DNA from: a phage
Direction: 5' to 3' (one strand)
Length of the DNA: 44,832 bases
Sequence record: PX055572.1
Part shown: piece by piece, positions 11,371 through 27,626 of the stretch
Position numbering within the stretch: position 1 is the first letter of the stretch
Layout: each line of letters starts with the position of its first letter
The notes under the pieces: generated by a model
Seen by the model: only the letters and a program-made list of their open reading frames with translations
Told to the model about the DNA's origin: nothing
Databases searched by the model: none
Made by a program: the position numbers and the translations under genes

Positions 11371-11783
11371 TGGGCTACTTTGAGGACTTAACAAAAGCGT
11401 TTGATGTGCCGCTGGTAGCCTTCGGAACCACCAACGGCATCAAGGTAGCGCTTGAAAACATCGACGCGCCGACGTCAACAGATACGCCGTATCTGGCAAG
11501 TTACATGTTGCTGGCGGATACCGAGCAGGCTGACTTATTCTTCACGGAACAACGCGCCGGTGTCTATCAGATAGACATTAACTACGCATCGGTGAAAGGT
11601 AGCGCGCCAATCAATAAAATGGCAGACTTACTTAACACGGCGTTTAAATCAGGTAAGTCATTTTCACGTAACGACATCTGCGCCGAGGTTCAATCGGTTA
11701 GCCTGGGGCCGCTGATTGTAGAAAACGGATGGGCCAAAAGACCATTGTCAATTAACTTTATTGCATTCACCAAGAGGCTGTGA
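11367..11783 (+). CDS. Tail terminator / completion protein
   Basis: 138-aa ORF immediately upstream of major tail protein; position only. Confidence 0.35.
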   Translation: MMGYFEDLTKAFDVPLVAFGTTNGIKVALENIDAPTSTDTPYLASYMLLADTEQADLFFTEQRAGVYQIDINYASVKGSAPINKMADLLNTAFKSGKSFSRNDICAEVQSVSLGPLIVENGWAKRPLSINFIAFTKRL

Positions 11784-11785
11784 AT

Positions 11786-12952
11786 ATGGCTACAACTCCT
11801 TTTAAGGGCGCGAATACCGCGCAATTCTATGTGGCGGAAACTACCCCGGGCGTAACACCGGCTAACCCGGTATGGTCGCCACTGCGTAACACAGGCGGCG
11901 TTCCTGCCATTACCCGTGACACGCTGACCTCCAACGAACTGGACGGCAGCCGCGAAACTACATCCATCCGCACCGGTAACAAGCAGGTTAGCGGTGAATA
12001 TGCTATTGAGCTTAGCTCGAAAAGCCAGGATGACTGGCTAGCCGGGGCTTTAGGCTCTACGTGGCAGGCTGGCGTATCTCTGTCAGGGCTATCGATTACC
12101 GTCGCACCGGCTGGCAAGACGTTCACACGTGCCACCGGCAGCTTTATCACTGACGGAGTTGGGGTAGGCGACCTGATTGCGTTTACCGATTTAACTGGCG
12201 ATAATGCAAAACCATTTATTGTTACTGCAGTAACGGCTACGGTTGTTACTGGTGCAGGCATCCAACACACCCTGACCACCGAGACAAAAACTAGTAAGGC
12301 TAAAACTGGCGACACGCTGGAAACCGGTAATACGTGTAAGACGTTCTCTATCCTTACCTGGTACAAAGGCCAGTGCGGCGGTACTTACGCGTACACGTTA
12401 ACCAAAGGCGTGGAAGTTTCTGGTTTTACCATCGAACAGGCTGTTAACGCGATGGTAACTGGCAGCTTCCCATTCATCGGTCGCAGTCAGGAGATTCTCA
12501 CCACGCCGCCGAGGGGTTCCAACTTCTCATCTGTTACTTTTGGTGATGAGCCGTTTTCTTCGGTTGACGTTTCCGTGTTCGATGGTTCTACGCCGTTGCG
12601 ATGCGACAGTCTGACTATCACCAACGATAACAGCGCGTCCGCGCAGTTCGAACTTGGTAACACTAACGTAGCGTTTGTTGAGCGTAGCCGCGCGGCTAAC
12701 ACTTTCTCCATCTCCGGCAAGCTGTACGACATGGCGATGATTCAGAAGTTTATCAACGAACAGCAGGTAGAGATTAACTCTATTCTGGCGGGGGTAAACG
12801 GGGCTATGTCTTTCAGTTTGAAACGCGCAGAGCTTACAGCAGTAACACCAGAGATTAGCGGACCAGAGTCAATCACTCAGTCCATTGAGGGGCAGGCCAC
12901 CGGCAACCAGTACCAGTCGTCTATCGTAATTCAACGTATCACCTACGCATAA
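11786..12952 (+). CDS. Major tail protein
   Basis: ATG 11786 with SD AAGAGG 8 nt upstream (ORF track starts at GTG 11780); 389 aa Thr/Gly/Ser-rich beta-type protein; followed by strong bidirectional terminator. Confidence 0.55.
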   Translation: MATTPFKGANTAQFYVAETTPGVTPANPVWSPLRNTGGVPAITRDTLTSNELDGSRETTSIRTGNKQVSGEYAIELSSKSQDDWLAGALGSTWQAGVSLSGLSITVAPAGKTFTRATGSFITDGVGVGDLIAFTDLTGDNAKPFIVTAVTATVVTGAGIQHTLTTETKTSKAKTGDTLETGNTCKTFSILTWYKGQCGGTYAYTLTKGVEVSGFTIEQAVNAMVTGSFPFIGRSQEILTTPPRGSNFSSVTFGDEPFSSVDVSVFDGSTPLRCDSLTITNDNSASAQFELGNTNVAFVERSRAANTFSISGKLYDMAMIQKFINEQQVEINSILAGVNGAMSFSLKRAELTAVTPEISGPESITQSIEGQATGNQYQSSIVIQRITYA

Positions 12953-12954
12953 AA

Positions 12955-12982
12955 CTAAGGCCCCTTTCGGGGCCTTTTTCTT
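12955..12982. terminator. Bidirectional terminator between major tail gene and reverse cassette
   Basis: AGGCCCC-tttc-GGGGCCT then TTTTCTT; A-rich on the other side. Confidence 0.65.
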
Positions 12983-13535
12983 ACAAACCTAATTTTAAAG
13001 CAATGTCTATAACGTTCGATTTAACGTCACCCGGTATGATGTAGGTGTCGTAATCTTTTACACCACTAACATCATACAGATAGCCACGGCTATCGCCGAT
13101 GAACGTATAGCCGTCACGATGGAGGCGAACGATTTGCACGTCATGCCCTGCGGCGACGATAGGGGCAACTTCACTGGCGAATCCACCGTCGGACACTACA
13201 AAAACTTCGTCGCCGTCAGGCAAGTTTTCAGCAAGATACTTACCGAAATAATCATCGCCGAATACCGGTTTAATGAATTGCTCAGAAATGGCAATCATTA
13301 ACTGGCGGCGGGACAACCCATTAAGAAAACCCTCGGGTTTTTCTTTCCGCGCCCGGTCGTCGTAGCCGTCGAGAAATTCGTGGTAAGCATCCTGGCCTAA
13401 CGCTGCCAAAGCAATATTGAACATTGGATTCTTGAAACTGGTAGTTCCTTTCGCAAAGCCCATTTCTACCAGCGCCATAGCAAGCGTGTCTTTCCCGCAA
13501 CCCGCAGGGCCATTAAGAATAATTACCTTAGCCAC
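12981..13535 (-). CDS. P-loop nucleotide kinase (dNMP kinase / polynucleotide kinase-like)
   Basis: Walker A GPAGCGKDT at N-terminus; 184 aa; adjacent to HAD phosphatase in reverse-strand cassette. Confidence 0.6.
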   Translation of the reverse strand: MAKVIILNGPAGCGKDTLAMALVEMGFAKGTTSFKNPMFNIALAALGQDAYHEFLDGYDDRARKEKPEGFLNGLSRRQLMIAISEQFIKPVFGDDYFGKYLAENLPDGDEVFVVSDGGFASEVAPIVAAGHDVQIVRLHRDGYTFIGDSRGYLYDVSGVKDYDTYIIPGDVKSNVIDIALKLGL

Positions 13536-14023
13536 TATTTATCGCTCCCGTGTGGTTTTAAGTGTGTAGAGTTCCCGTTACAGTCGTATTCGGTAACTGC
13601 GTGTGCGGTTATGCCGAGGTCACGGAAATGCTTTATTACCGCTGGAGAGTCGTCGAACGCACACAAGATTCTTTCCAGTCCGAAAGCACGCAACACCTCT
13701 TCTTTAATTACGATGTCTTTTCTGTTGTCGTGTTTGCTGCGCATGATTAGCGTGTCAAACCTAACGTTATTCTCTCGTAACCATTCGCGAGTCTCCTCCT
13801 CAGCGTCATCACTTCGCCCGGTAAGGATAATTATAGTAAGTCCGGAATGCCACAGTACGCTACACAAATGGATATTGTCGTATATCGGAGCGTCATCTTT
13901 GCAGGCCATGTTAAATGGCTTCCACGCCCACGTTTCTCCGTAGTTATCTTTTGGTAACAGGTGTAAGCGATGGGTACCGTCGGCCAATGTCCCGTCTAAA
14001 TCGAAAATTACAATATCTTTCAT
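13535..14023 (-). CDS. HAD-superfamily phosphatase (nucleotidase / 3'-phosphatase-like)
   Basis: N-terminal catalytic motif DLDGTL (DxDxT), 162 aa; translationally coupled to kinase gene. Confidence 0.6.
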   Translation of the reverse strand: MKDIVIFDLDGTLADGTHRLHLLPKDNYGETWAWKPFNMACKDDAPIYDNIHLCSVLWHSGLTIIILTGRSDDAEEETREWLRENNVRFDTLIMRSKHDNRKDIVIKEEVLRAFGLERILCAFDDSPAVIKHFRDLGITAHAVTEYDCNGNSTHLKPHGSDK

Positions 14024-15150
14024 CCCAGCATCTCCGGTGAAATAGTTAAACGTGCGACCTCGCCATATTCGGCGCTATAAGTAATTACATTTGCACTGCG
14101 GCCCGACATCCATCCGCCGCGAGAGGCGTAGGCGTCTTTAGCCGCTAAGGTGCGGTGTTGCTCAACAATCATGTTACGGCTTTCTACAATCTTCTGGTGG
14201 TGCAGATGGCCTACGTGGGCGTAGCTGTAAACACTCTCGCCGAACGCTTTACGGAACTTGGCAATCATAACCGGTTCGATAGCGTCGAATCGTGCTTTAT
14301 GCCCGTGATGGAAGAACAGCGTCGTTTTGCCGTGTCGCACCATCTTGTAAACATCCGGCGACGTATCGACGAATACACGAGGCTCGTTGTCGTACAGTGT
14401 GCTGAACATCTCCGCCAGCCAAATCATCCCGGATTCGTCGTGGTTCCCCTGAACTATAAGCAAGCGAACAGTTTTATGCTTAACCAGAGCCATATCAACA
14501 ACACGGCGGACCATGCGAATCATGTAGCGGACAAGTTTCTGGTAACGCGTGTCGGCGTCAAGGACATGACCACTAGCCGGTGTAACGGCGTCAAGACTAT
14601 CGAAGTGAGCTAAGTCGCCAAGAAGATTAATAACCCCCGTACCTGCATCCGGTGCTTTCTGAAACGCAGCATCAAACCAACGAGAGAATAAGTCCTCCGC
14701 GATTTTCATATCCCAGTCGTCGCCGCTCTCGTCAGCCCAGGCTAACATACCGAGATGGAAATCAGATACCGTGTAAAGATTGAGTAGTTTATCGTCACGT
14801 TTGGCTCGTGCCGGTTTAACAGGCGCAACGGGCGTAATCTCTGACTTCATGCCCTCTATTACGGCTTTCATCAATTCAACCTGACGTTCGGCATCAGCGT
14901 CGGTCTTAACCCATTGCAACTTAGTGTTGCCGAACTCGTCCACCAGGGACGACGTTCCTTTAATCTTGTAACCGTCTGGTACAAGGTGACTAACGTCGCG
15001 CCCGTGGCCTACGCCTTTCTTAGCCAGCTTCGCTTTACGGATACGAATAACGCGGTCTGAGATTCCGTATTTACGGGCGATATCGATATTCTTCATCCCG
15101 GCGTTCAATTCTTCCTGCAACTGTTCGTCGGTTATTTTCTTCTGGGCCAT
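14020..15150 (-). CDS. Calcineurin-like metallophosphoesterase with N-terminal HTH domain
   Basis: Motifs DFH, GDLAHFD, GNHDE, HHGH, GHLHH; N-terminal 60 aa HTH-like (IDIARKYGISDRVIRIRKAK); start ATG 15150 with SD GAGGAA 7 nt upstream (ORF track extends further 5'). Confidence 0.65.
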   Translation of the reverse strand: MAQKKITDEQLQEELNAGMKNIDIARKYGISDRVIRIRKAKLAKKGVGHGRDVSHLVPDGYKIKGTSSLVDEFGNTKLQWVKTDADAERQVELMKAVIEGMKSEITPVAPVKPARAKRDDKLLNLYTVSDFHLGMLAWADESGDDWDMKIAEDLFSRWFDAAFQKAPDAGTGVINLLGDLAHFDSLDAVTPASGHVLDADTRYQKLVRYMIRMVRRVVDMALVKHKTVRLLIVQGNHDESGMIWLAEMFSTLYDNEPRVFVDTSPDVYKMVRHGKTTLFFHHGHKARFDAIEPVMIAKFRKAFGESVYSYAHVGHLHHQKIVESRNMIVEQHRTLAAKDAYASRGGWMSGRSANVITYSAEYGEVARLTISPEMLG

Positions 15151-15188
15151 GCTTACTTCCTCGTGTTTAGGATTTGTCTTATGGTAGC

Positions 15189-15380
15189 CTACTTCTCTTT
15201 CACGTTCGAGTTGCAAGCCCAGATTAAAATGAATACCCACGGCAACAGAATCCACCCGAGAAATAAGTTAGCCATGAATATCGCCAGCTTTGCTTTATGG
15301 TTACGCATATGTGCCACCAAAAACGGGATAAAATAAACGGCTACAAAAATAATTAAGAAGAACATAGTGATACCGGTCAT
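15189..15380 (-). CDS. Small two-TM membrane protein, superinfection-immunity (Imm)-like
   Basis: MTGITMFFLIIFVAVYFIPFLVAHMRNHKAKLAIFMANLFLGWILLPWVFILIWA; start at internal ATG with SD AGGAG 7 nt upstream; LLGW...WxxxLxWA pattern resembles superinfection-immunity family (from memory). Confidence 0.45.
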   Translation of the reverse strand: MTGITMFFLIIFVAVYFIPFLVAHMRNHKAKLAIFMANLFLGWILLPWVFILIWACNSNVKEK

Positions 15381-15422
15381 AACATAACTCCTGATTTGAG
15401 ATAACATCGTTGGTGTAAGTGA

Positions 15423-15451
15423 ATAGTACGCTATTATATTGGGGAGTGCAA
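15423..15451 (-). promoter_or_regulatory. Promoter H: TTGCAC-N17-TACTAT with AATAG-N4-CTATT palindrome
   Basis: As transcribed: TTGCAC TCCCCAATATAATAGCG TACTAT; ~40 nt upstream of Imm-like gene. Confidence 0.55.
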
Positions 15452-15558
15452 GTAGTGTGCTAGAATAATTTTGCGCCTAGTGTCGCACACGAAAAGCGGG
15501 TGGTTCCCGTCTGGCGCATTTCCTTTAACCAGTAACCTCTTAACCAAAGGATTAAAGA

Positions 15559-15975
15559 ATGAAACTTTCTGATTTTTATTACGAAGCGGAAGCCGAAAAG
15601 GGCGCACGTATGCCGATACCGCTAAAAGACGGTACTGATTCCGGGGAATGGCTTAATGTTGTTTCTCCTGAGGCGGACGTTGCCGTTAAGGCTATGCGCG
15701 CGTTCACCCTTGCATACCGGGCAGTATTAGGGAAATTAAAACCGCTTCGTGATAAGTGCGAAGAGATGAAAGATTTCTCTGAATACAACCTGAAGATGGA
15801 AGACGCGGCGACGGACCTTAACCGTCAGTTAGCGATTGAATTGGTTAACGGGTGGAGCCTTGACGACGAATTCAATAAAGAGAATCTGAACACACTCCTG
15901 ACGCAATATAAACGACTCGCGGAACTTGTTGTTGTGTTTCATAACGAACAACTGCACCAGCTACAGGAAAAGTAG
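15559..15975 (+). CDS. Tail assembly chaperone (G-like)
   Basis: 138-aa acidic ORF immediately upstream of tape measure; a -1 frame ORF opens at 15945 before its stop. Confidence 0.5.
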   Translation: MKLSDFYYEAEAEKGARMPIPLKDGTDSGEWLNVVSPEADVAVKAMRAFTLAYRAVLGKLKPLRDKCEEMKDFSEYNLKMEDAATDLNRQLAIELVNGWSLDDEFNKENLNTLLTQYKRLAELVVVFHNEQLHQLQEK

Positions 15976-16340
15976 ACGCGTTGCTCCAGTTCGCCCGTTG
16001 GAACTTCATAACCCGCCACAAACGGCGGGAATTTGACAGTATCGCCGATGGGCATAAAGCCGCGCTAATTGCTATGGGGGTTATGCAAGACGCGCCGGAT
16101 GCAACGCAGGCCGCTGGGCCGGAATGCCCCCCTGAGCTACTAACCACATTTGAGAAGTACAGGGAAATTAAATTCACCCGCCGAGTGGACGACGACGGCA
16201 TCAAGATGTACCCGCGCGAGCAATTACGATGGTCAGATTTAGTGGCGTACAGCACCGTTTCAGGCCAGAATATAGGGATGTTCGAATCCGACATCATCAT
16301 GAGCTTAGACGCTATTTTCGAGGGTAGAAACGATGGCTGA
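15945..16340 (+). CDS. Tail assembly chaperone extension (GT-like, candidate -1 frameshift product)
   Basis: -1 frame relative to 15559..15975 is open from 15945 to 16340; no ATG; near-slippery GGAAAAG at 15966-15972; alternatively TTG start 15981. Confidence 0.35.
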   Translation, partial: RTTAPATGKVDALLQFARWNFITRHKRREFDSIADGHKAALIAMGVMQDAPDATQAAGPECPPELLTTFEKYREIKFTRRVDDDGIKMYPREQLRWSDLVAYSTVSGQNIGMFESDIIMSLDAIFEGRNDG

Positions 16341-18672
16341 TGTAGCTAGTTTAGTAGTAAAAGTAACAGAGCAAGGCGCGAAAGCCACATCAGACCGTCT
16401 TGACAACCTTTCAAAGTCCGCAAAAGTAGCGGGGGCCGCCGTAGCAGGCCTTGCTTCTATCGTAGCGGCTACCGCGTATAAAGCTGCCCAAGAACTGGTT
16501 GACTCACAGCGGCAACTGGACAAGATGTCCGCCAGTTTGAAGACCTTAACAGGAAGTACCCAAGGTGCTAAACAGGCGCTAAGTATCCTGCAAGATTTTG
16601 CCCGCGATACCCCATACGGACTGGAGCAGGCGGTGGAAGGCTTCCGTAAGCTGGTGGCCCTTGGCCTTACCCCATCCGAGGAGGCGTTGCGGTCCTACGG
16701 CAATACCGCATCGGCTATGGGCAAGGACCTTAATCAGATGATTGAGGCGGTAGCCGACGCCAGTACGTTTGAGTTCGAACGCCTAAAAGAATTCGGCATC
16801 AAAGCCAAGCAGAACAAAAACGACGTAGAGTTTACATTCCAGGGGACAACAACCGTAGTTAAGAAAAGCGCTGCCGATATTGAGCAGTATTTACTTAATA
16901 TTGGTAACGTAAATTTTGCCGGTGCCATGGCGGACCAGGCCAACACCCTTAATGGCGCTATCGCGAGCGCCAGTGACTCATGGTCGCAGCTAAAAATGAC
17001 GCTTGCCACCAGTCTTGATGTTGGCGCACTTGCGGAACCTATCAGGTATATCGATGACTTGATCCAGGAATTAAACGCGTCTGTTGCTTCCGGTGAATTA
17101 GCCGCTGAAATGCTGATGTGGGGCGACATAGCGTCGGAAGTAGGAAGCGCTATCGAGATGTCATTCGACGCTGCGTTTGGCTTTGTTGGTGACGCCATCA
17201 ACGGGCTTAATGAACTGTGGGATTTCAGCAGCAAGAGTATTACCGATAGCGGAGAACAAACGGCCACCACCATCGCTGAATCCGCCGCCGATGGTCTTGA
17301 CTTCATCGCGGAAGAGTTCACCGCGATGGAGAGATTCTTTGAAGATATGGTTAAAGGTGCTCAGGACGCTGGCCGTCTTGTACGCGCCGCTTTTACCCCC
17401 GGGGAATCAGTAGACGTAGCTAAAAATATCAACTTCCAGCTTGGCATGGCTTTGGATACCCAGCGCGATGTCGCCGACGTTACGCGTAAAAGTTTCCGCG
17501 AACAGGTAGAAGCTCAACAGGATATTGTAGCGTTAAAACGCGCGGCGTATGACATCGATAAGGAGTCCGCAAAAGCTGAGGGGTTAAACAAATTTAAGGT
17601 AACCGGAACCGGCGGCGGTTCTGACGATGACGGGTCAGCCGCAAAAGCCGCTAAGAAAGCAGTGGACGCGTTCGAGCGCCAGAAAAAGGCGGCGGAAGAC
17701 TTCTACTATCAGTCAATCCATCTTAATGATGACGTATTTCAGAAAATAGAAGCTAACCAGGAAGAGCAACTGTCTAAGTTGCAGGATTTTTATAGCAATA
17801 AGCTTCTTAGCGACCAACAGTACGAAAACGCCAAGACGCAGATTATGCTCTCTGCCGAACAGGCCCGCCAGGAAGAACTGGACAAGAAAAGGAAAGAAGC
17901 CCAGGAGAAGCAGCAGAAAGGTGATGATTTCATGGCTCAGATTATGGGCCAGAACGCCACCGAGCTTGAGCTTCTGGATATTCAGGAACAGCAGAAACTG
18001 GCGGTAGCCGATAAGTACCGGGAACAAGGTCTGATTAGCGAGAAGCAGTATCAGGCCGCGCTTAACGCCATCAACGAGCAGTACGCAACCAAGCGTGCCG
18101 ACGCAACGGCAACAGCTTTCGGTAACATGGCCTCAAACATCGGGTCTGCGTTGGGCGAGGCTTCTGGTGCGTACAAGGCATTCGCTATCGTACAGGCCAC
18201 TATAGCCACGTACACCGCAGCTATCGAGGCGTACAAGTCAACGGCTGCTATCCCTGTTGTTGGCCCGTTCCTGGCCCCTGTAGCCGCTGCCGCTGCCGTC
18301 GGGGCAGGTATGGCGCAGATTTCCGCTATCAGGTCAGCACGTGAACAGGGTGGACAGTTATCCGCCGGGCAGGCTTCCACCATCGCTGAACGCGGTAAAC
18401 CCGAAGTTATCATGCCCGCTGGCGCATCGCGTGTGCGCACCGCGCAGCAGATGAAAGAAATTATGGGGCAAAACGGGTCTTCTTCCGGCCCATCTAATGT
18501 TACCATTGTAAATAATACATCGAGTCAGATTGGCAACGTATCCACCGAGCAGGATGATGAAGGCCGTCTGCGTATCATCATAGAAGAGCAAGTTGCTGCA
18601 TCTTTGCAGAACAGCAACAGTAAGATTAGCAAGGCCCGCAAGGCCACAAGAAACGCGCCGGGGTTTAAATAA
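16333..18672 (+). CDS. Tail tape measure protein
   Basis: 779 aa, Ala/Gln/Glu-rich coiled-coil with C-terminal hydrophobic segments; position after chaperones. Confidence 0.8.
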   Translation: MADVASLVVKVTEQGAKATSDRLDNLSKSAKVAGAAVAGLASIVAATAYKAAQELVDSQRQLDKMSASLKTLTGSTQGAKQALSILQDFARDTPYGLEQAVEGFRKLVALGLTPSEEALRSYGNTASAMGKDLNQMIEAVADASTFEFERLKEFGIKAKQNKNDVEFTFQGTTTVVKKSAADIEQYLLNIGNVNFAGAMADQANTLNGAIASASDSWSQLKMTLATSLDVGALAEPIRYIDDLIQELNASVASGELAAEMLMWGDIASEVGSAIEMSFDAAFGFVGDAINGLNELWDFSSKSITDSGEQTATTIAESAADGLDFIAEEFTAMERFFEDMVKGAQDAGRLVRAAFTPGESVDVAKNINFQLGMALDTQRDVADVTRKSFREQVEAQQDIVALKRAAYDIDKESAKAEGLNKFKVTGTGGGSDDDGSAAKAAKKAVDAFERQKKAAEDFYYQSIHLNDDVFQKIEANQEEQLSKLQDFYSNKLLSDQQYENAKTQIMLSAEQARQEELDKKRKEAQEKQQKGDDFMAQIMGQNATELELLDIQEQQKLAVADKYREQGLISEKQYQAALNAINEQYATKRADATATAFGNMASNIGSALGEASGAYKAFAIVQATIATYTAAIEAYKSTAAIPVVGPFLAPVAAAAAVGAGMAQISAIRSAREQGGQLSAGQASTIAERGKPEVIMPAGASRVRTAQQMKEIMGQNGSSSGPSNVTIVNNTSSQIGNVSTEQDDEGRLRIIIEEQVAASLQNSNSKISKARKATRNAPGFK

Positions 18673-20090
18673 TGAGCGACTTATACTTTCCACGTAGCCT
18701 TAAGCCGGTGGTATCAAAAGGCTACTCAATGACCAGACGTAACAACGTCTGGAGTGTAGATTTAGCCGGTGGCGGGGTGCGTCAGGGCCGTGACACGTAT
18801 TACGACGTGTTCCCTGTTAGCGTAACCCTGATTACATCCGCAATGGGGCGGCAGGCGTTTCTGTCGTTCCTCGAGAAAGTCGATGGTGGCGCGTCAAGTT
18901 TCTGGATGGCGCACGACTTCGGCATGGGTATTGAGGATTATCAGGTAACCATCACGTCCACTATAGCGGAGTCCACCGAAGACGGCATTAACTGGACGAT
19001 TACCTTCACGGCAACCGCCGAGAAATCGCCGTTCCAGGACCAAGAGAACCAGTGCCTGATTAACAATCTTCCAGATTTGTATGGCTGTTATGGTGATTGC
19101 CTGGGCAGTTTCCTGAAAATATATGCGAACTACGAGACTACGTTCCCACGCATCTGGAGTAATGAAGGGCCTGCGGGATACCCGCCAATTAACCTTCTGG
19201 CGTCCGCGCTGGATAGCCGCATTGTTTATGAGGGGCCACAGGTATACCACATCAACCGAAACGGCAATCTTGTGCCAACAGCCGCAAATGAATGGCCCCT
19301 TACGTTTATTGACGGGGTTGCTGTTGGGCGTGTGCCACCAGAAGGCGGTTCTATTAACTACCAGATAGGCGGGTTAGGTATTGGGTGGGTACGTACTTTC
19401 AACCGTATGCCACTAACATCAACAGAGGACAGTGTATATCAAGGCAACCTGGCGGGCACAGTCACCCCAACAGCAGAAAATAACAGCCATTTCTTGTATG
19501 CCGAATCGCTGGGGGATTCAGTAATAGATGTTGGGGAAACATATACTGCTACGGTAATTCTTAAGGCGAATGGTGTCCAGTTTATTCAGGTTTATTGGAA
19601 CGCAGGTAGCACAGGGGTTTCATCGCAATACTCTAACTTCGACCTTATTAATAAAGCTGTATCAGGCACGGCGACATCGGCTTTCGTAACTGAAATATCT
19701 GATGGGTGGGTTCTATGCTCAACTACCACAACCGCGACAGGAGACGGTTCTGCACTATCCTCCATCGCGGTGGCAAGCGTACCGTCTATGACGTCTACCA
19801 GACTCCCGTCTTACGCATCGGATGGAGCATCTTCTTTTTCAGTTGCGTCCGCTCAGGTTGAAAAAAAACCATTTGCCACGTCGCCGATAGTAACTGACGC
19901 ATCACCATCCGCCCGCCCGGCGGCATCGGCAAAAGTAGCAATGAACGGCGCAACAAGCATCGACATTACCTATTCTGACGGCACTGTGGTAAACATTCCA
20001 GCGATTGGAGATTACGCCTCCATACCACAAGCGGATTCGGCGTGGGGTAGTAAATACATCACTCGTATTGATTTTAATGTGGACGGTTAA
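18672..20090 (+). CDS. Minor/distal tail protein
   Basis: 472-aa ORF immediately after tape measure (ATGA overlap). Confidence 0.45.
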   Translation: MSDLYFPRSLKPVVSKGYSMTRRNNVWSVDLAGGGVRQGRDTYYDVFPVSVTLITSAMGRQAFLSFLEKVDGGASSFWMAHDFGMGIEDYQVTITSTIAESTEDGINWTITFTATAEKSPFQDQENQCLINNLPDLYGCYGDCLGSFLKIYANYETTFPRIWSNEGPAGYPPINLLASALDSRIVYEGPQVYHINRNGNLVPTAANEWPLTFIDGVAVGRVPPEGGSINYQIGGLGIGWVRTFNRMPLTSTEDSVYQGNLAGTVTPTAENNSHFLYAESLGDSVIDVGETYTATVILKANGVQFIQVYWNAGSTGVSSQYSNFDLINKAVSGTATSAFVTEISDGWVLCSTTTTATGDGSALSSIAVASVPSMTSTRLPSYASDGASSFSVASAQVEKKPFATSPIVTDASPSARPAASAKVAMNGATSIDITYSDGTVVNIPAIGDYASIPQADSAWGSKYITRIDFNVDG

Positions 20091-26205: not shown

Positions 26206-27626
26206 TTCTTACTCCTACGTTTCATATAATTAAGTAGTTCATCCTGTACAGACCTTTTCTCGTCGGTACGCGCGGCGACAACCTCGTCCAGAGTGTCTTT
26301 AGCAACGATGTGATAAAGGAACACCGGGCGCTCGTGACCCGCCTGTTTCTGGCGGACTGGGCCTATGCGCTCAACAACCTGCAAATAGTGCTCAAGGTTC
26401 CAGCCTTGCGAGATGAACGCCAGATGATGACCCCCGTCCTGTAAATTCAAACCATGCCCGGCTGACGCAGGATGCACGCATAAAATCTCGATTTCCCCAC
26501 GGTTCCACGCTTCCATCTGCTTGTTCCCCTTAGCGCCTTTGGCGAACGCCTGTGCCTGTGGGAATCGCTTAAGGATACGCTCCAGTTCGTGTTTAAACTG
26601 ATAGGCTACCAGCAACGGCGCACCCTGCAACTCCTCAACAATCGACTCGAGCGCATCCAGTTTCGTGTCGTGCACTTTCTCCCAGTCTTTGGTCGCTTCG
26701 CCATCCGGCCCTGACACATACACGGCACCAGATGCAATCTGCAAGCACTTTGAGGTCTTCGCCGCAGCGTTAGCCGCTTCAACTTCCCCGCTCTCCAGTT
26801 CTGCGAATAACTTCTCCTCCATATCTATGTACGCCTGACGCGCTTTCTTCGGCAGGTCGATTTCCACCGGTACGATAACAGGCGCTTCACAACCGAACCA
26901 CTCGGCGGCGTCAATCGTCAGACTGATGTCCTTCATCTTCTGGTGAATCTCGTTATCTGCACCAGGGCGGGCGTGATATTCACGTGCCATCGCAGATTTT
27001 CCTTTCTGTACCGAATTAAACCAGCGGTCGGTGAATGCTGTATACGACGAACCTAGGCGCTCGCCAGCGTCGATAAACCAGTTCTGGCCCCACAAATCCT
27101 TGAGGCCGTTTGGTGACGGTGTACCAGTCAGGTTAATAAAACGCTTAACCCTTCCGAAAGCCACTTTACTAAGCGCCTTTGCACGCTTGCTACCACCTGA
27201 ACGGCTGCGGAATGATTTAAGCTTCGTGCTTTCATCTGCAACGATAACCGTAAAAGGCCAGTCGTCTTTGCCGTAGTAGTCAATCAGCCACTCGATAACC
27301 TCATAGTTCGTGCAAACCACGTTAGCATCTGACTCCAGCGCTGCGATGCGGCGCTTCTCCGAACCAGTTGCATCTACGACACGCAGACAAGGGAATTGCC
27401 ATTTCTCTTGTTCAGCGGGCCACGTACCGGACGCAACACGTAACGGGGCAAGGATTAACACGCGGTCCTCTTCCGTAAGCTGCCCGTTGCGGAACAGGCG
27501 GTTGAGCACCCACATAGTGGAGGAGGTTTTACCTCCCCCCATTCCGCACCATATATTACAGCGCGGGTGTTGCAGCATAAACGAAGTCATGAGCTTCTGG
27601 TATTCGCGCCTTTGAAACTTACTCAT
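26202..27626 (-). CDS. SNF2/DEAD-like superfamily 2 helicase
   Basis: Walker A GMGGGKT, DEAD-like box IVADEST, C-terminal helicase motifs; 474 aa. Confidence 0.75.
   Translation of the reverse strand: MSKFQRREYQKLMTSFMLQHPRCNIWCGMGGGKTSSTMWVLNRLFRNGQLTEEDRVLILAPLRVASGTWPAEQEKWQFPCLRVVDATGSEKRRIAALESDANVVCTNYEVIEWLIDYYGKDDWPFTVIVADESTKLKSFRSRSGGSKRAKALSKVAFGRVKRFINLTGTPSPNGLKDLWGQNWFIDAGERLGSSYTAFTDRWFNSVQKGKSAMAREYHARPGADNEIHQKMKDISLTIDAAEWFGCEAPVIVPVEIDLPKKARQAYIDMEEKLFAELESGEVEAANAAAKTSKCLQIASGAVYVSGPDGEATKDWEKVHDTKLDALESIVEELQGAPLLVAYQFKHELERILKRFPQAQAFAKGAKGNKQMEAWNRGEIEILCVHPASAGHGLNLQDGGHHLAFISQGWNLEHYLQVVERIGPVRQKQAGHERPVFLYHIVAKDTLDEVVAARTDEKRSVQDELLNYMKRRSKK

What the first reader, a model, noticed from the sequence alone, without database searches (positions are those of the whole stretch)
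15945..15981. Tail-chaperone -1 frame overlap with a non-canonical slippery site
The -1 frame opens at 15945, 30 nt before the chaperone stop (15973-15975), and runs to 16340, as in G/GT systems. The only heptamer in the overlap is GGAAAAG (15966-15972), one base off the lambda GGGAAAG site. Either a non-canonical slip site is used, or the second ORF starts independently at TTG 15981.
Basis: partly seen in the sequence, partly recalled or inferred. Interest (0 to 1): 0.4.

Follow-up and report, generated by a model that had tools for sequence, protein, structure and literature searches.

The report
Tail-chaperone frameshift at A_AAG-stop site
This is the expected "G/GT-type" programmed -1 ribosomal frameshift that makes a long and a short tail-assembly chaperone in a Kagunavirus phage; it is already annotated in sister phages. 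Its only unusual feature is that the conserved slip signal is the four bases A_AAG placed right against the stop codon, not a classic seven-base site.

Summary
ORF1 (15559-15975, 138 aa, Pfam Phage_TAC_4) ends in CAG GAA AAG TAG. The -1 frame is open from 15945 to 16340 and encodes a Phage_TAC_18 domain that abuts the tape-measure gene.

The window is a Kagunavirus (Guernseyvirinae). In 79 related loci (T-domain identity down to 43%), found without reference to the slip site:
- A_AAG is invariant and is followed directly by TAG or TAA in 78 of 79.
- The preceding codon varies (GAA, GCA, TCA, AAA, GGA). In two lineages this gives canonical A_AAA_AAG or G_GGA_AAG at the same position.
- TTG 15981 is CTG outside one clade. 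The next T-frame start codon there lies 10-108 codons downstream.
- Third-codon-position variability switches to the -1 frame right at the junction.

I therefore favour a -1 slip of tRNA-Lys (AAG to AAA) that gives a 260-aa fusion (...LQEK|VDALL...). I disfavour an independent TTG start.

Deposited join-CDS proteins of K1ind1, fFiEco03, fFiEco02 and Shemara match this junction exactly, so the frameshift is already annotated in the family. It appears to be untested experimentally.

I found no conserved downstream RNA structure or upstream SD. The adjacent stop codon is the only conserved candidate stimulator, and that role is an inference. Interest is low to moderate.

The parts
11780..12952 (+). 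Tail tube (major tail) protein gene. It is the upstream partner expected for a G/GT locus, but is separated from it by a reverse-strand cassette.
   Evidence: Pfam Phage_tube_2, 128 bits; phrog_290.
15559..15975 (+). ORF1, the short 'G-like' tail assembly chaperone: 138 aa, zero frame, stop TAG at 15973-15975. An AAGGA Shine-Dalgarno lies 7 nt upstream.
   Evidence: ORF list and sequence. Pfam Phage_TAC_4, E=1.1e-7, above cut-off. phrog_15027 positions 1-138.
15945..15975 (+). Overlap window in which the -1 frame is already open while ORF1 is still being read.
   Evidence: TAA at 15942-15944 in the -1 frame. Across the family the overlap shrinks to 19 nt, which confines the shift to the last about 5 codons.
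15966..15972 (+). Heptamer G_GAA_AAG. The P-site codon GAA (Glu) would re-pair to GGA with a second-position mismatch.
   Evidence: Sequence. The P-site codon varies in relatives: GAA, GCA, TCA, AAA, GGA. Peng et al. 2019 call AUG GAA AAG unfavourable for slippage in vitro.
15969..15972 (+). Conserved slip core A_AAG. tRNA-Lys re-pairs from AAG to AAA in the -1 frame.
   Evidence: Invariant in 79/79 related loci; zero entropy at positions -3..+1 relative to the slip in 69 distinct sequences. A_AAG is the most shift-prone tetramer in E. coli (Sharma et al. 2014).
15973..15975 (+). Zero-frame stop TAG immediately 3' of the slip core; candidate stimulator ('shifty stop').
   Evidence: Directly adjacent in 78/79 loci. 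TAG 47, TAA 15, TGA 0 among 63 distinct junctions, although TGA is the commonest stop in the genome (39/78).
15972..16340 (+). 'T-like' segment read in the -1 frame: 122 codons plus TGA. G15972 is read twice.
   Evidence: Pfam Phage_TAC_18, E=1.5e-18. phrog_15027 positions 143-259. The alignment shows V1, A3, L4 and A8 invariant upstream of any start codon in most clades.
15559..16340 (+). Predicted frameshift fusion ('GT-like'), 260 aa, junction ...LHQLQEK|VDALLQFARW...
   Evidence: Conceptual translation. The same construction reproduces exactly the deposited join-CDS proteins of K1ind1, fFiEco03/fPoEco01, fFiEco02 and Shemara.
15981..15983 (+). TTG used by most annotations as an independent start of ORF2 (119 aa). 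It is probably an internal Leu codon.
   Evidence: CTG in 56 of 76 distinct relatives, with a single origin of TTG. The SD-like AGGA lies 12 nt upstream; anti-SD pairing is -4.3 kcal/mol against a genome median of -6.4.
16333..18672 (+). Tape measure protein gene. Its ATG overlaps the end of the T segment by 8 nt.
   Evidence: phrog_1538, E=7e-205; ORF list.

Best explanation
A small fraction of ribosomes translating the tail-assembly-chaperone gene (15559-15975) slip back one base at A_AAG (15969-15972). Peptidyl- or aminoacyl-tRNA-Lys re-pairs from AAG to AAA, the next codon read is GUA (15972-15974), and translation continues in the -1 frame to 16340. The result is a 260-aa G-T-type fusion (...LQEK-VDALL...) alongside the abundant 138-aa product.

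By analogy with lambda gpG/gpGT, the shared N-terminal part would coat the tape-measure protein, and the T extension would recruit the tail-tube protein. The fixed low frameshift rate would set the ratio of the two products.

Shown here: the geometry, the family-wide conservation of A_AAG next to the stop, the absence of a conserved T start codon, and the switch of codon phase at the site.

Inferred:
- that slippage really occurs, and at what level;
- that tRNA-Lys alone is the essential slipping tRNA, with tRNA-Glu on GAA to GGA at best a near-cognate helper;
- that the adjacent, slowly decoded stop codon (UAG or UAA in an A/C +4 context) provides the pause, since no RNA structure does;
- the division of labour between the G and T parts.
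For: 1. Locus identity: Phage_TAC_4 plus Phage_TAC_18 directly upstream of the tape-measure gene.
2. Slip core: 79 loci were retrieved through the T domain only. All have A_AAG, and 78 have it directly before TAG or TAA. This holds at nucleotide divergence up to 0.50 and with at least 7 changes of the preceding codon.
3. Canonical sites at the same position: RP180 has G_GGA_AAG, and L082/L083 have A_AAA_AAG.
4. No conserved T start: the first T-frame start codon is at codon 3 only in the window/Jerseyvirus clade, and at codons 10-108 elsewhere. Gene callers accordingly give ORF2 lengths of 64-119 aa.
5. Coding phase: the most variable codon position moves from zero-frame position 3 upstream (1.61 bits) to T-frame position 3 downstream (1.37 bits). 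This is already visible in nt +4..+33.
6. Prior annotation: deposited join-CDS proteins in four relatives equal the EK|V fusion exactly.
7. Literature: A_AAG is the best -1 tetramer in E. coli (PMC4066793). A_AAG sites without a re-pairable P-site codon occur incidentally in B. subtilis cdd (A_CGA_AAG) and are productively used by IS1222 (G_CGA_AAG) (PMC5009743).
Against: - I found no experimental evidence for this phage group: no proteomics and no reporter assay.
- In a reconstituted E. coli system, AUG GAA AAG gave mainly zero-frame product (Peng et al. 2019).
- Tetramers without a stimulator are near background in vivo, 0.147% against 0.112% (Sharma et al. 2014), so a stimulator is needed.
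- None of the classic stimulators was found. There is no family-conserved downstream structure, and the 60-nt downstream folding z-scores scatter around 0. There is no conserved SD-like sequence 10-14 nt upstream (read from the junction sequences).
- The stimulatory role of the stop codon rests on conservation only. The absence of TGA rests on few independent events.
- In this clade a TTG with a weak, distant AGGA does exist, so some T-only product cannot be excluded.
Confidence: 0.8

Rival explanations
1. There is no frameshift. ORF2 is made as a separate 119-aa protein by initiation, or by termination-reinitiation after TAG, at TTG 15981. This is how RefSeq annotates the nearest relatives.
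For: - TTG lies 5 nt after the ORF1 stop, with AGGA 12 nt upstream.
- Golestan, fEg-Eco06, KMB36, JNS02 and SeF1 annotate two separate CDSs.
- Three other genes of the genome use TTG starts.
Against: - TTG is restricted to one clade and is CTG in 56 of 76 distinct relatives.
- In other clades no start codon is available for 10-108 codons, yet the N-terminal T residues are conserved and codon-phased.
- The SD pairing is weak, -4.3 against a median of -6.4 kcal/mol, and sits in the lowest fifth of genes.
- This model does not explain the invariant A_AAG-stop, or the canonical heptamers that appear at exactly this spot.
Confidence: 0.07
2. The frameshift is the classic lambda-type two-tRNA slip during translocation on the near-cognate heptamer G_GAA_AAG. 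tRNA-Glu tolerates GGA through a G:U pair at the middle position. The neighbouring stop codon is incidental.
For: - G_GAA_AAG is the majority state, in 49 of 63 distinct junctions.
- One relative has the true G_GGA_AAG.
- Lambda needs no RNA structure (general knowledge, Levin et al. 1993, cited in PMC5009743).
- The protein product is identical to that of the favoured model.
Against: - The P-site codon changed at least 7 times. The states include GCA and TCA, whose tRNAs cannot re-pair in the -1 frame, while A_AAG and the adjacent stop never changed.
- In vitro, AUG GAA AAG behaves as a one-tRNA site and gives mainly zero-frame product at any EF-G level.
Confidence: 0.3
3. Both routes operate in this clade: low-level -1 frameshifting gives G-T, and the TTG adds some free T protein.
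For: The TTG and the AGGA are present and fixed in the window clade and in Jerseyvirus.
Against: - There is no evidence that free T is functional. In lambda, T acts as part of GT (PMC5009743).
- TTG is synonymous with the ancestral CTG Leu codon, so it may be neutral.
Confidence: 0.15
4. RNA polymerase slippage on the A run produces a frameshifted mRNA, rather than ribosomal slippage.
For: A short A4 run is present.
Against: The run is only 4 A, and 3 A in the GCA, TCA and GGA (RP180) variants. From general knowledge, known transcriptional slippage sites need runs of about 7-9 or more.
Confidence: 0.01

Closest known systems
Phage lambda gpG/gpGT and the conserved tail-assembly-chaperone frameshift of long-tailed dsDNA phages (Levin et al. 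1993; Xu, Hendrix and Duda 2004, 2013, 2014)
   Same: Two overlapping ORFs lie directly upstream of the tape-measure gene. The second is in the -1 frame and lacks a conserved start of its own. The slip site is near the end of the first ORF, the A-site codon is AAG, and no RNA structure is needed.
   Different: Lambda uses the canonical G_GGA_AAG. Here the P-site codon is GAA, and in relatives it is also GCA, TCA, AAA or GGA. The slip site abuts the stop codon. The tail-tube gene is separated from the chaperone by a 2.6-kb reverse-strand cassette. The Pfam families are Phage_TAC_4 and Phage_TAC_18, and I did not test sequence homology to lambda G or T.
Annotated frameshift chaperones of the same subfamily: K1ind1 ORF21A/21B (ADA82367/ADA82368), fFiEco03, fFiEco02 and Shemara join CDSs
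   Same: These are homologous genes with the same junction (...EK|V...) and the same A_AAG-stop site. The deposited proteins equal the conceptual fusion exactly.
   Different: The window's own species and most other records, including RefSeq Golestan, annotate two separate genes. None of the annotations is backed by an experiment that I could find.
Single-tRNA A_AAG sites: IS1222 (G_CGA_AAG), IS3 (A_AAG plus pseudoknot) and B. subtilis cdd (A_CGA_AAG)
   Same: Only tRNA-Lys can re-pair. The codon 5' of AAG is not slippery.
   Different: IS3 frameshifting uses a downstream pseudoknot (PMC4066793); stimulators in the other two are from general knowledge. No such element is conserved here, and the adjacent stop is the only conserved neighbour.
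Pea enation mosaic virus 2 shift site G_GAU_UUU(_UGG_UAG)
   Same: It has the same kind of departure from X_XXY_YYZ: G_GAN with a second-position mismatch for the P-site tRNA. A nearby zero-frame stop is required, since changing it to a sense codon is strongly deleterious (PMC5009743).
   Different: It is a eukaryotic plant RNA virus. The stop is one codon further away, and the tRNAs differ.
Burkholderia phage KL1 gp18/gp19 (Lynch et al. 2012, PMC3483164)
   Same: The products are 142 aa and 264 aa, and the predicted slip site lies immediately upstream of the stop codon. Its tail protein gp20 is similar to tail proteins of the K1G/K1H/K1ind phages.
   Different: The heptamer is the canonical G_GGA_AAC and the stop is TGA. 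An extra tail gene lies between the chaperone and the tape measure.

Membership tests
G/GT-type tail assembly chaperone with programmed frameshift (Xu et al. 2004) | A pair of overlapping ORFs immediately upstream of the tape-measure gene and downstream of the major tail gene | tested here: met
   ORF1 15559-15975, -1 ORF to 16340, TMP 16333-18672, tail tube 11780-12952. A reverse-strand cassette (12981-15407) lies between the tube gene and the chaperone.
G/GT-type tail assembly chaperone with programmed frameshift (Xu et al. 2004) | The second ORF is in an alternative frame and has no conserved start codon or RBS of its own | tested here: met
   It is in the -1 frame. TTG occurs in one clade only, and elsewhere the first start codon is 10-108 codons downstream. 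The SD is weak.
G/GT-type tail assembly chaperone with programmed frameshift (Xu et al. 2004) | A canonical X_XXY_YYZ slippery heptamer in the overlap | tested here: not met
   The window has G_GAA_AAG. Only the tetramer A_AAG is canonical (Z_ZZN). Canonical heptamers occur at the homologous position in RP180 and in L082/L083.
G/GT-type tail assembly chaperone with programmed frameshift (Xu et al. 2004) | Sequence membership in recognised chaperone families | tested here: met
   PF08748 Phage_TAC_4, 32.5 bits against 21.1. PF23812 Phage_TAC_18, 67.1 bits against 27. phrog_15027 covers both halves.
G/GT-type tail assembly chaperone with programmed frameshift (Xu et al. 2004) | Both the short and the fused product are made at a fixed ratio and are required for tail assembly | not testable with these tools
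   This needs a reporter assay, infected-cell proteomics and phage genetics.
Z_ZZN tetramer (single-tRNA) -1 frameshift sites (Sharma et al. 2014) | An in-frame A_AAG whose A-site tRNA re-pairs cognately in the -1 frame, with a non-slippery 5' codon | tested here: met
   A_AAG at 15969-15972 is in phase and invariant in 79 loci, with variable 5' codons.
Z_ZZN tetramer (single-tRNA) -1 frameshift sites (Sharma et al. 2014) | An accompanying stimulator: a downstream pseudoknot or hairpin, or an upstream SD | tested here: not met
   The alifold consensus has 3 pairs and -0.98 kcal/mol. The 60-nt downstream z-scores range from -1.7 to +1.9. No conserved SD lies at -10 to -14. The window-clade fold (z=-3.5) is not conserved.
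'Shifty stop' frameshifting (Weiss et al. 1987): slip of the P-site tRNA while a stop codon occupies the A site | [quoted passage not shown] | tested here: met
   AAG-TAG in the window. The stop is adjacent in 78/79 loci despite at least 8 changes of stop state.
'Shifty stop' frameshifting (Weiss et al. 1987): slip of the P-site tRNA while a stop codon occupies the A site | The frameshift level depends on the stop codon and on release-factor activity | not testable with these tools
   This needs stop-to-sense mutants and RF1 titration in a reporter.

The most novel reading that the evidence does not exclude
Across Guernseyvirinae the programmed signal is not a heptamer. It is a structure-free, termination-coupled single-tRNA slip: peptidyl-tRNA-Lys on A_AAG slips -1 while an RF1-readable stop (UAG or UAA, never UGA) in a weak A/C +4 context occupies the A site. 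The invariant GCG-YTG just downstream tunes the pause. If so, this would be a natural, deeply conserved bacterial example of stop-codon-stimulated -1 programmed frameshifting. It would also mean the G:GT ratio responds to release-factor activity in the host.
Probability: 0.3. Interest if true: 0.45.

Novelty: already known. Interest (0 to 1): 0.27.

Why it matters
For annotation, the window's own phage group (phiEc3, Golestan, K-01 and most Jerseyvirus records) lists two separate genes. One of these is a dubious TTG-started 'hypothetical protein' or second 'chaperone'. The records should instead carry a joined frameshift CDS, as K1ind1 and fFiEco03 do.

For recoding biology, the family offers a clean natural series at one homologous position: G_GAA_AAG, N_GCA_AAG, G_TCA_AAG, A_AAA_AAG and G_GGA_AAG, each followed by UAG or UAA. 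This series could be used to measure two things in an E. coli or Salmonella phage context: how much the P-site codon contributes to -1 slippage at A_AAG, and how much the adjacent stop contributes.

It also shows that heptamer-based frameshift finders will miss this whole subfamily. These phages are widely used as therapeutic and biocontrol agents.

Tried and rejected
- Downstream stimulatory RNA. The window's 100 nt after the slip fold well (-38.3 kcal/mol, z=-3.5). However, the hairpin at 16012-16029 is clade-specific, the alifold consensus over 15 diverse relatives is essentially empty, and the 60-nt z-scores in 63 junctions centre on 0. I rejected this as a conserved stimulator.
- Upstream SD-like stimulator at -10 to -14. 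None is conserved in the junction sequences. The AGGA inside the site is too close to act like the dnaX SD. This is an inference from general knowledge.
- Rfam. No frameshift element was found; the only hit was an unrelated int-alpA motif upstream.
- The search for homologous proteins with the fusion returned only 5 weak or partial hits and added nothing. The exact look-up was more useful.
- Literature searches for 'GGAAAAG' were almost all noise, apart from Peng et al. 2019. No paper on frameshifting in Kagunavirus or Jerseyvirus was found.
- Transcriptional slippage, stop-codon readthrough (the zero frame closes again 11 codons later and is the wrong frame) and sequencing error (the site is identical in hundreds of genomes) were considered and dismissed.
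- SS3e and GE_vB_M5 show broken ORF1s. I treated these as sequencing or assembly indels in an old record and an 'UNVERIFIED' record, not as biology.

Full report
**What is in the sequence**

The region was read directly and its ORFs were listed.
- ORF1 runs 15559-15975 (138 aa). It is preceded by AAGGA 7 nt upstream and ends ...CAG GAA AAG TAG.
- The -1 frame has a TAA at 15942-15944, is open from 15945, and runs to TGA at 16338-16340.
- The tape-measure ATG (16333) overlaps that end by 8 nt.
- GGAAAAG (15966-15972) is in the phase G_GAA_AAG. TTG 15981 is the first start-type codon of the -1 frame.

Only the '30 nt' is approximate: the overlap is 28 nt before the stop, or 31 nt including it.

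**What the locus is**

The stretch 15300-16700 is 100% identical to Escherichia phages phiEc3, K-01 and K-02, and 99.8% identical to Golestan, which are Kagunavirus (Guernseyvirinae). About 300 Kagunavirus and Jerseyvirus records match it.
- ORF1 is Pfam Phage_TAC_4.
- The -1 segment is Pfam Phage_TAC_18.
- The next gene is the tape measure.
- 11780-12952 is a Phage_tube_2 tail tube protein.
- Both halves match a single 259-position PHROG, phrog_15027 ('tail assembly chaperone'): ORF1 matches positions 1-138 and ORF2 matches positions 143-259. Fused versions therefore already exist in databases.

**Existing annotation**

Four relatives carry a two-piece joined CDS described as a frameshift product: K1ind1 ORF21A/B, fFiEco03, fFiEco02 and Shemara. 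Most others, including RefSeq Golestan, list two separate genes, with ORF2 starting at TTG or at various later codons.

I built conceptual fusions with the junction ...E-K|V... and looked them up by exact sequence. They are identical to the deposited proteins ADA82368.1 (K1ind1), QNO11663.1 (fFiEco03/fPoEco01), QNO11587.1 (fFiEco02) and QEA10354.1 (Shemara). Versions shifted one codon earlier (...G-K-V...) are not in the collection. The window's own fusion has never been deposited.

**Comparative test of the slip site**

A first set of 25 loci from GenBank and IMG/VR showed the following:
- CAG GAA AAG TAG is retained in clades that share under 60% chaperone identity.
- Raoultella phage RP180 has the canonical G_GGA_AAG TAG at the same position.
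- Serratia phage Eta has G_TCA_AAG TAG.

For an unbiased sample, I aligned eight T segments and used them to fetch 79 IMG/VR loci through the T domain alone. The results were:
- A_AAG is present in 79/79 loci. It lies directly before TAG or TAA in 78/79; the exception has one intervening codon.
- The preceding codon is GAA, GCA, AAA, TCA or GGA, with at least 7 changes on a neighbour-joining tree. Two lineages thereby have canonical heptamers (A_AAA_AAG and G_GGA_AAG).
- The overlap shrinks to 19 nt in several lineages, so the shift must occur within the last five codons.
- Nucleotide divergence across the set reaches 0.50. Even so, positions -3 to +1 around the slip (AAAAG T) have zero entropy.

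The conserved element is therefore the tetramer plus the stop, not the heptamer.

**Test of the TTG alternative**

- T-frame codon 4 is TTG only in the window clade plus Jerseyvirus. This is a single origin. It is CTG (also Leu) in 56 of 76 distinct relatives.
- Elsewhere the first ATG, GTG or TTG in the T frame lies at codon 10-12, 28-34, 50, 57, 94 or 108. This explains why gene callers give ORF2 lengths of 64, 87, 88, 110, 118 and 119 aa.
- The T-frame N-terminus is nevertheless conserved as protein: V1, A3, L4, A8, F21, D22, I24, G27 and H28 are invariant.
- The three-base periodicity of variability changes phase at the junction. Upstream, the most variable position is zero-frame position 3 (1.61 bits against 1.02 and 0.85). 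Downstream, it is T-frame position 3 (1.37 bits against 0.69 and 0.56). This is already so in nt +4..+33.
- The TTG's SD is weak. AGGA lies 12 nt upstream, and anti-SD pairing is -4.3 kcal/mol against a genome median of -6.4, in the lowest fifth of 78 genes.

An independent start cannot explain the family pattern. A minor T-only product in this one clade cannot be excluded.

**Mechanism**

tRNA-Lys pairs with both AAG and AAA, and A_AAG is the most shift-prone tetramer in E. coli. Tetramers alone are close to background, however (0.147% against 0.112%). A_AAG reaches 5.6% only with the IS3 pseudoknot (Sharma et al. 2014, PMC4066793).

Exactly this sequence, AUG GAA AAG, was used by Peng et al. 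(2019, PMC6924986) as the 'less slippery' control. tRNA-Glu would have a second-position mismatch on GGA, and mainly zero-frame product is made.

A_AAG sites with a non-slippery 5' codon are known from IS1222, where the site is productively used, and from B. subtilis cdd, where frameshifting is incidental (Atkins et al. 2016, PMC5009743).

I found none of the classic stimulators:
- The window's downstream 100 nt fold well (z=-3.5), but the fold is clade-specific and the alignment consensus is empty.
- The 60-nt z-scores over 63 junctions centre on zero.
- No SD-like element is conserved 10-14 nt upstream.

What is conserved is the adjacent stop:
- Stop identity is TAG 47, TAA 15 and TGA 0 among 63 distinct junctions. 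Genome-wide usage is TGA 39, TAA 31 and TAG 8.
- TAA to TGA would be silent in the T frame (GTA to GTG).
- The +4 base is A or C in 61 of 63 junctions.
- GCG and YTG at +6..+11 are invariant, even at third codon positions.

I therefore favour a single-tRNA-Lys slip helped by slow decoding of the stop (a 'shifty stop', Weiss et al. 1987). This step is inferred, not shown. The TGA avoidance rests on few independent events, with at least 8 stop-state changes in all.

A published analogue is the pea enation mosaic virus site G_GAU_UUU, which has a required nearby stop (PMC5009743). The related-architecture phage KL1 has G_GGA_AAC immediately before its stop (PMC3483164).

**Function**

By analogy with lambda, the short product and the G part of the fusion bind the tape-measure protein, the T part recruits the tail-tube protein, and the ratio is about 30:1. 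Neither protein is present in virions (PMC5009743). None of this was testable here.

**Verdict**

The feature is an ordinary member of a well-known class and is already annotated in congeners, so I rate its novelty as 'already known'.

The modest added value is threefold:
- the finding that the conserved signal is A_AAG plus a stop, with a free P-site codon;
- the hint of selection on stop identity and context;
- the practical point that most records in this subfamily, including the closest relatives of the window, lack the joined CDS.

Noticed in passing
window 15470-15534 (+): An Rfam int-alpA RNA (RF02996) match lies just above the gathering score (36.6 against 35.8 bits, E=1.2e-5, full-length model). 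It sits in the intergenic region about 25 nt upstream of the chaperone start codon. The same motif scores 30.9-33.8 bits at the same place in fFiEco03, KMB36, RP180, fEg-Eco19 and K1ind1. It does not reach E<0.01 in the Jerseyvirus, Cornellvirus or Serratia Eta loci. This is an odd location for a motif described next to integrase and alpA genes. It may be a 5' leader element of the tail operon.
   Followed up: partly
window 15973-15983, and the same positions in loci L030-L108: The stop after the slip site is TAG or TAA and never TGA in 63 distinct junctions, although TGA is the commonest stop in the genome. The +4 base is A or C in 61 of 63. GCG and YTG at +6..+11 are invariant, including at third codon positions. 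Coding constraint alone does not obviously explain this.
   Followed up: partly
window 12981-15407 (- strand): A reverse-strand cassette interrupts the tail module between the tube gene and the chaperone. It holds a P-loop kinase-like ORF, a HAD or polynucleotide-kinase-like ORF, a metallophosphoesterase annotated as 'DNA repair exonuclease', and a small superinfection-immunity protein.
   Followed up: no
window 16012-16029 (within 15973-16072): A strong local hairpin, CCCGCC-ACAAAC-GGCGGG, lies inside a 100-nt fold with z=-3.5. It is conserved unchanged in the window's close relatives, degraded in Jerseyvirus and absent in the K1ind1-type clade. It starts about 40 nt after the slip site, too far for a classic stimulator. 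Its role is unknown.
   Followed up: partly
L014 (SS3e, AY730274.2) and L017 (GE_vB_M5, MG969410.1): In these two records the chaperone ORF1 is broken after 37 and 21 codons by indels. These are most likely sequence errors in an old record and an 'UNVERIFIED' record.
   Followed up: no
hit H46, PP389045.1: A record named Pseudomonas phage vB_PsS_LDT325 (host P. syringae) is 81% identical over the whole chaperone locus, like the Salmonella Jerseyvirus phages. This is an unexpected host label for that group.
   Followed up: no
L109 (Golestan) 26317-27246 (- strand), codon 85: An in-frame canonical G_GGA_AAG heptamer lies inside the DNA methyltransferase gene. An in-frame A_AAA_AAA lies at codon 397 of gene 17370-18788. 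I did not check whether any alternative frame is open there.
   Followed up: no
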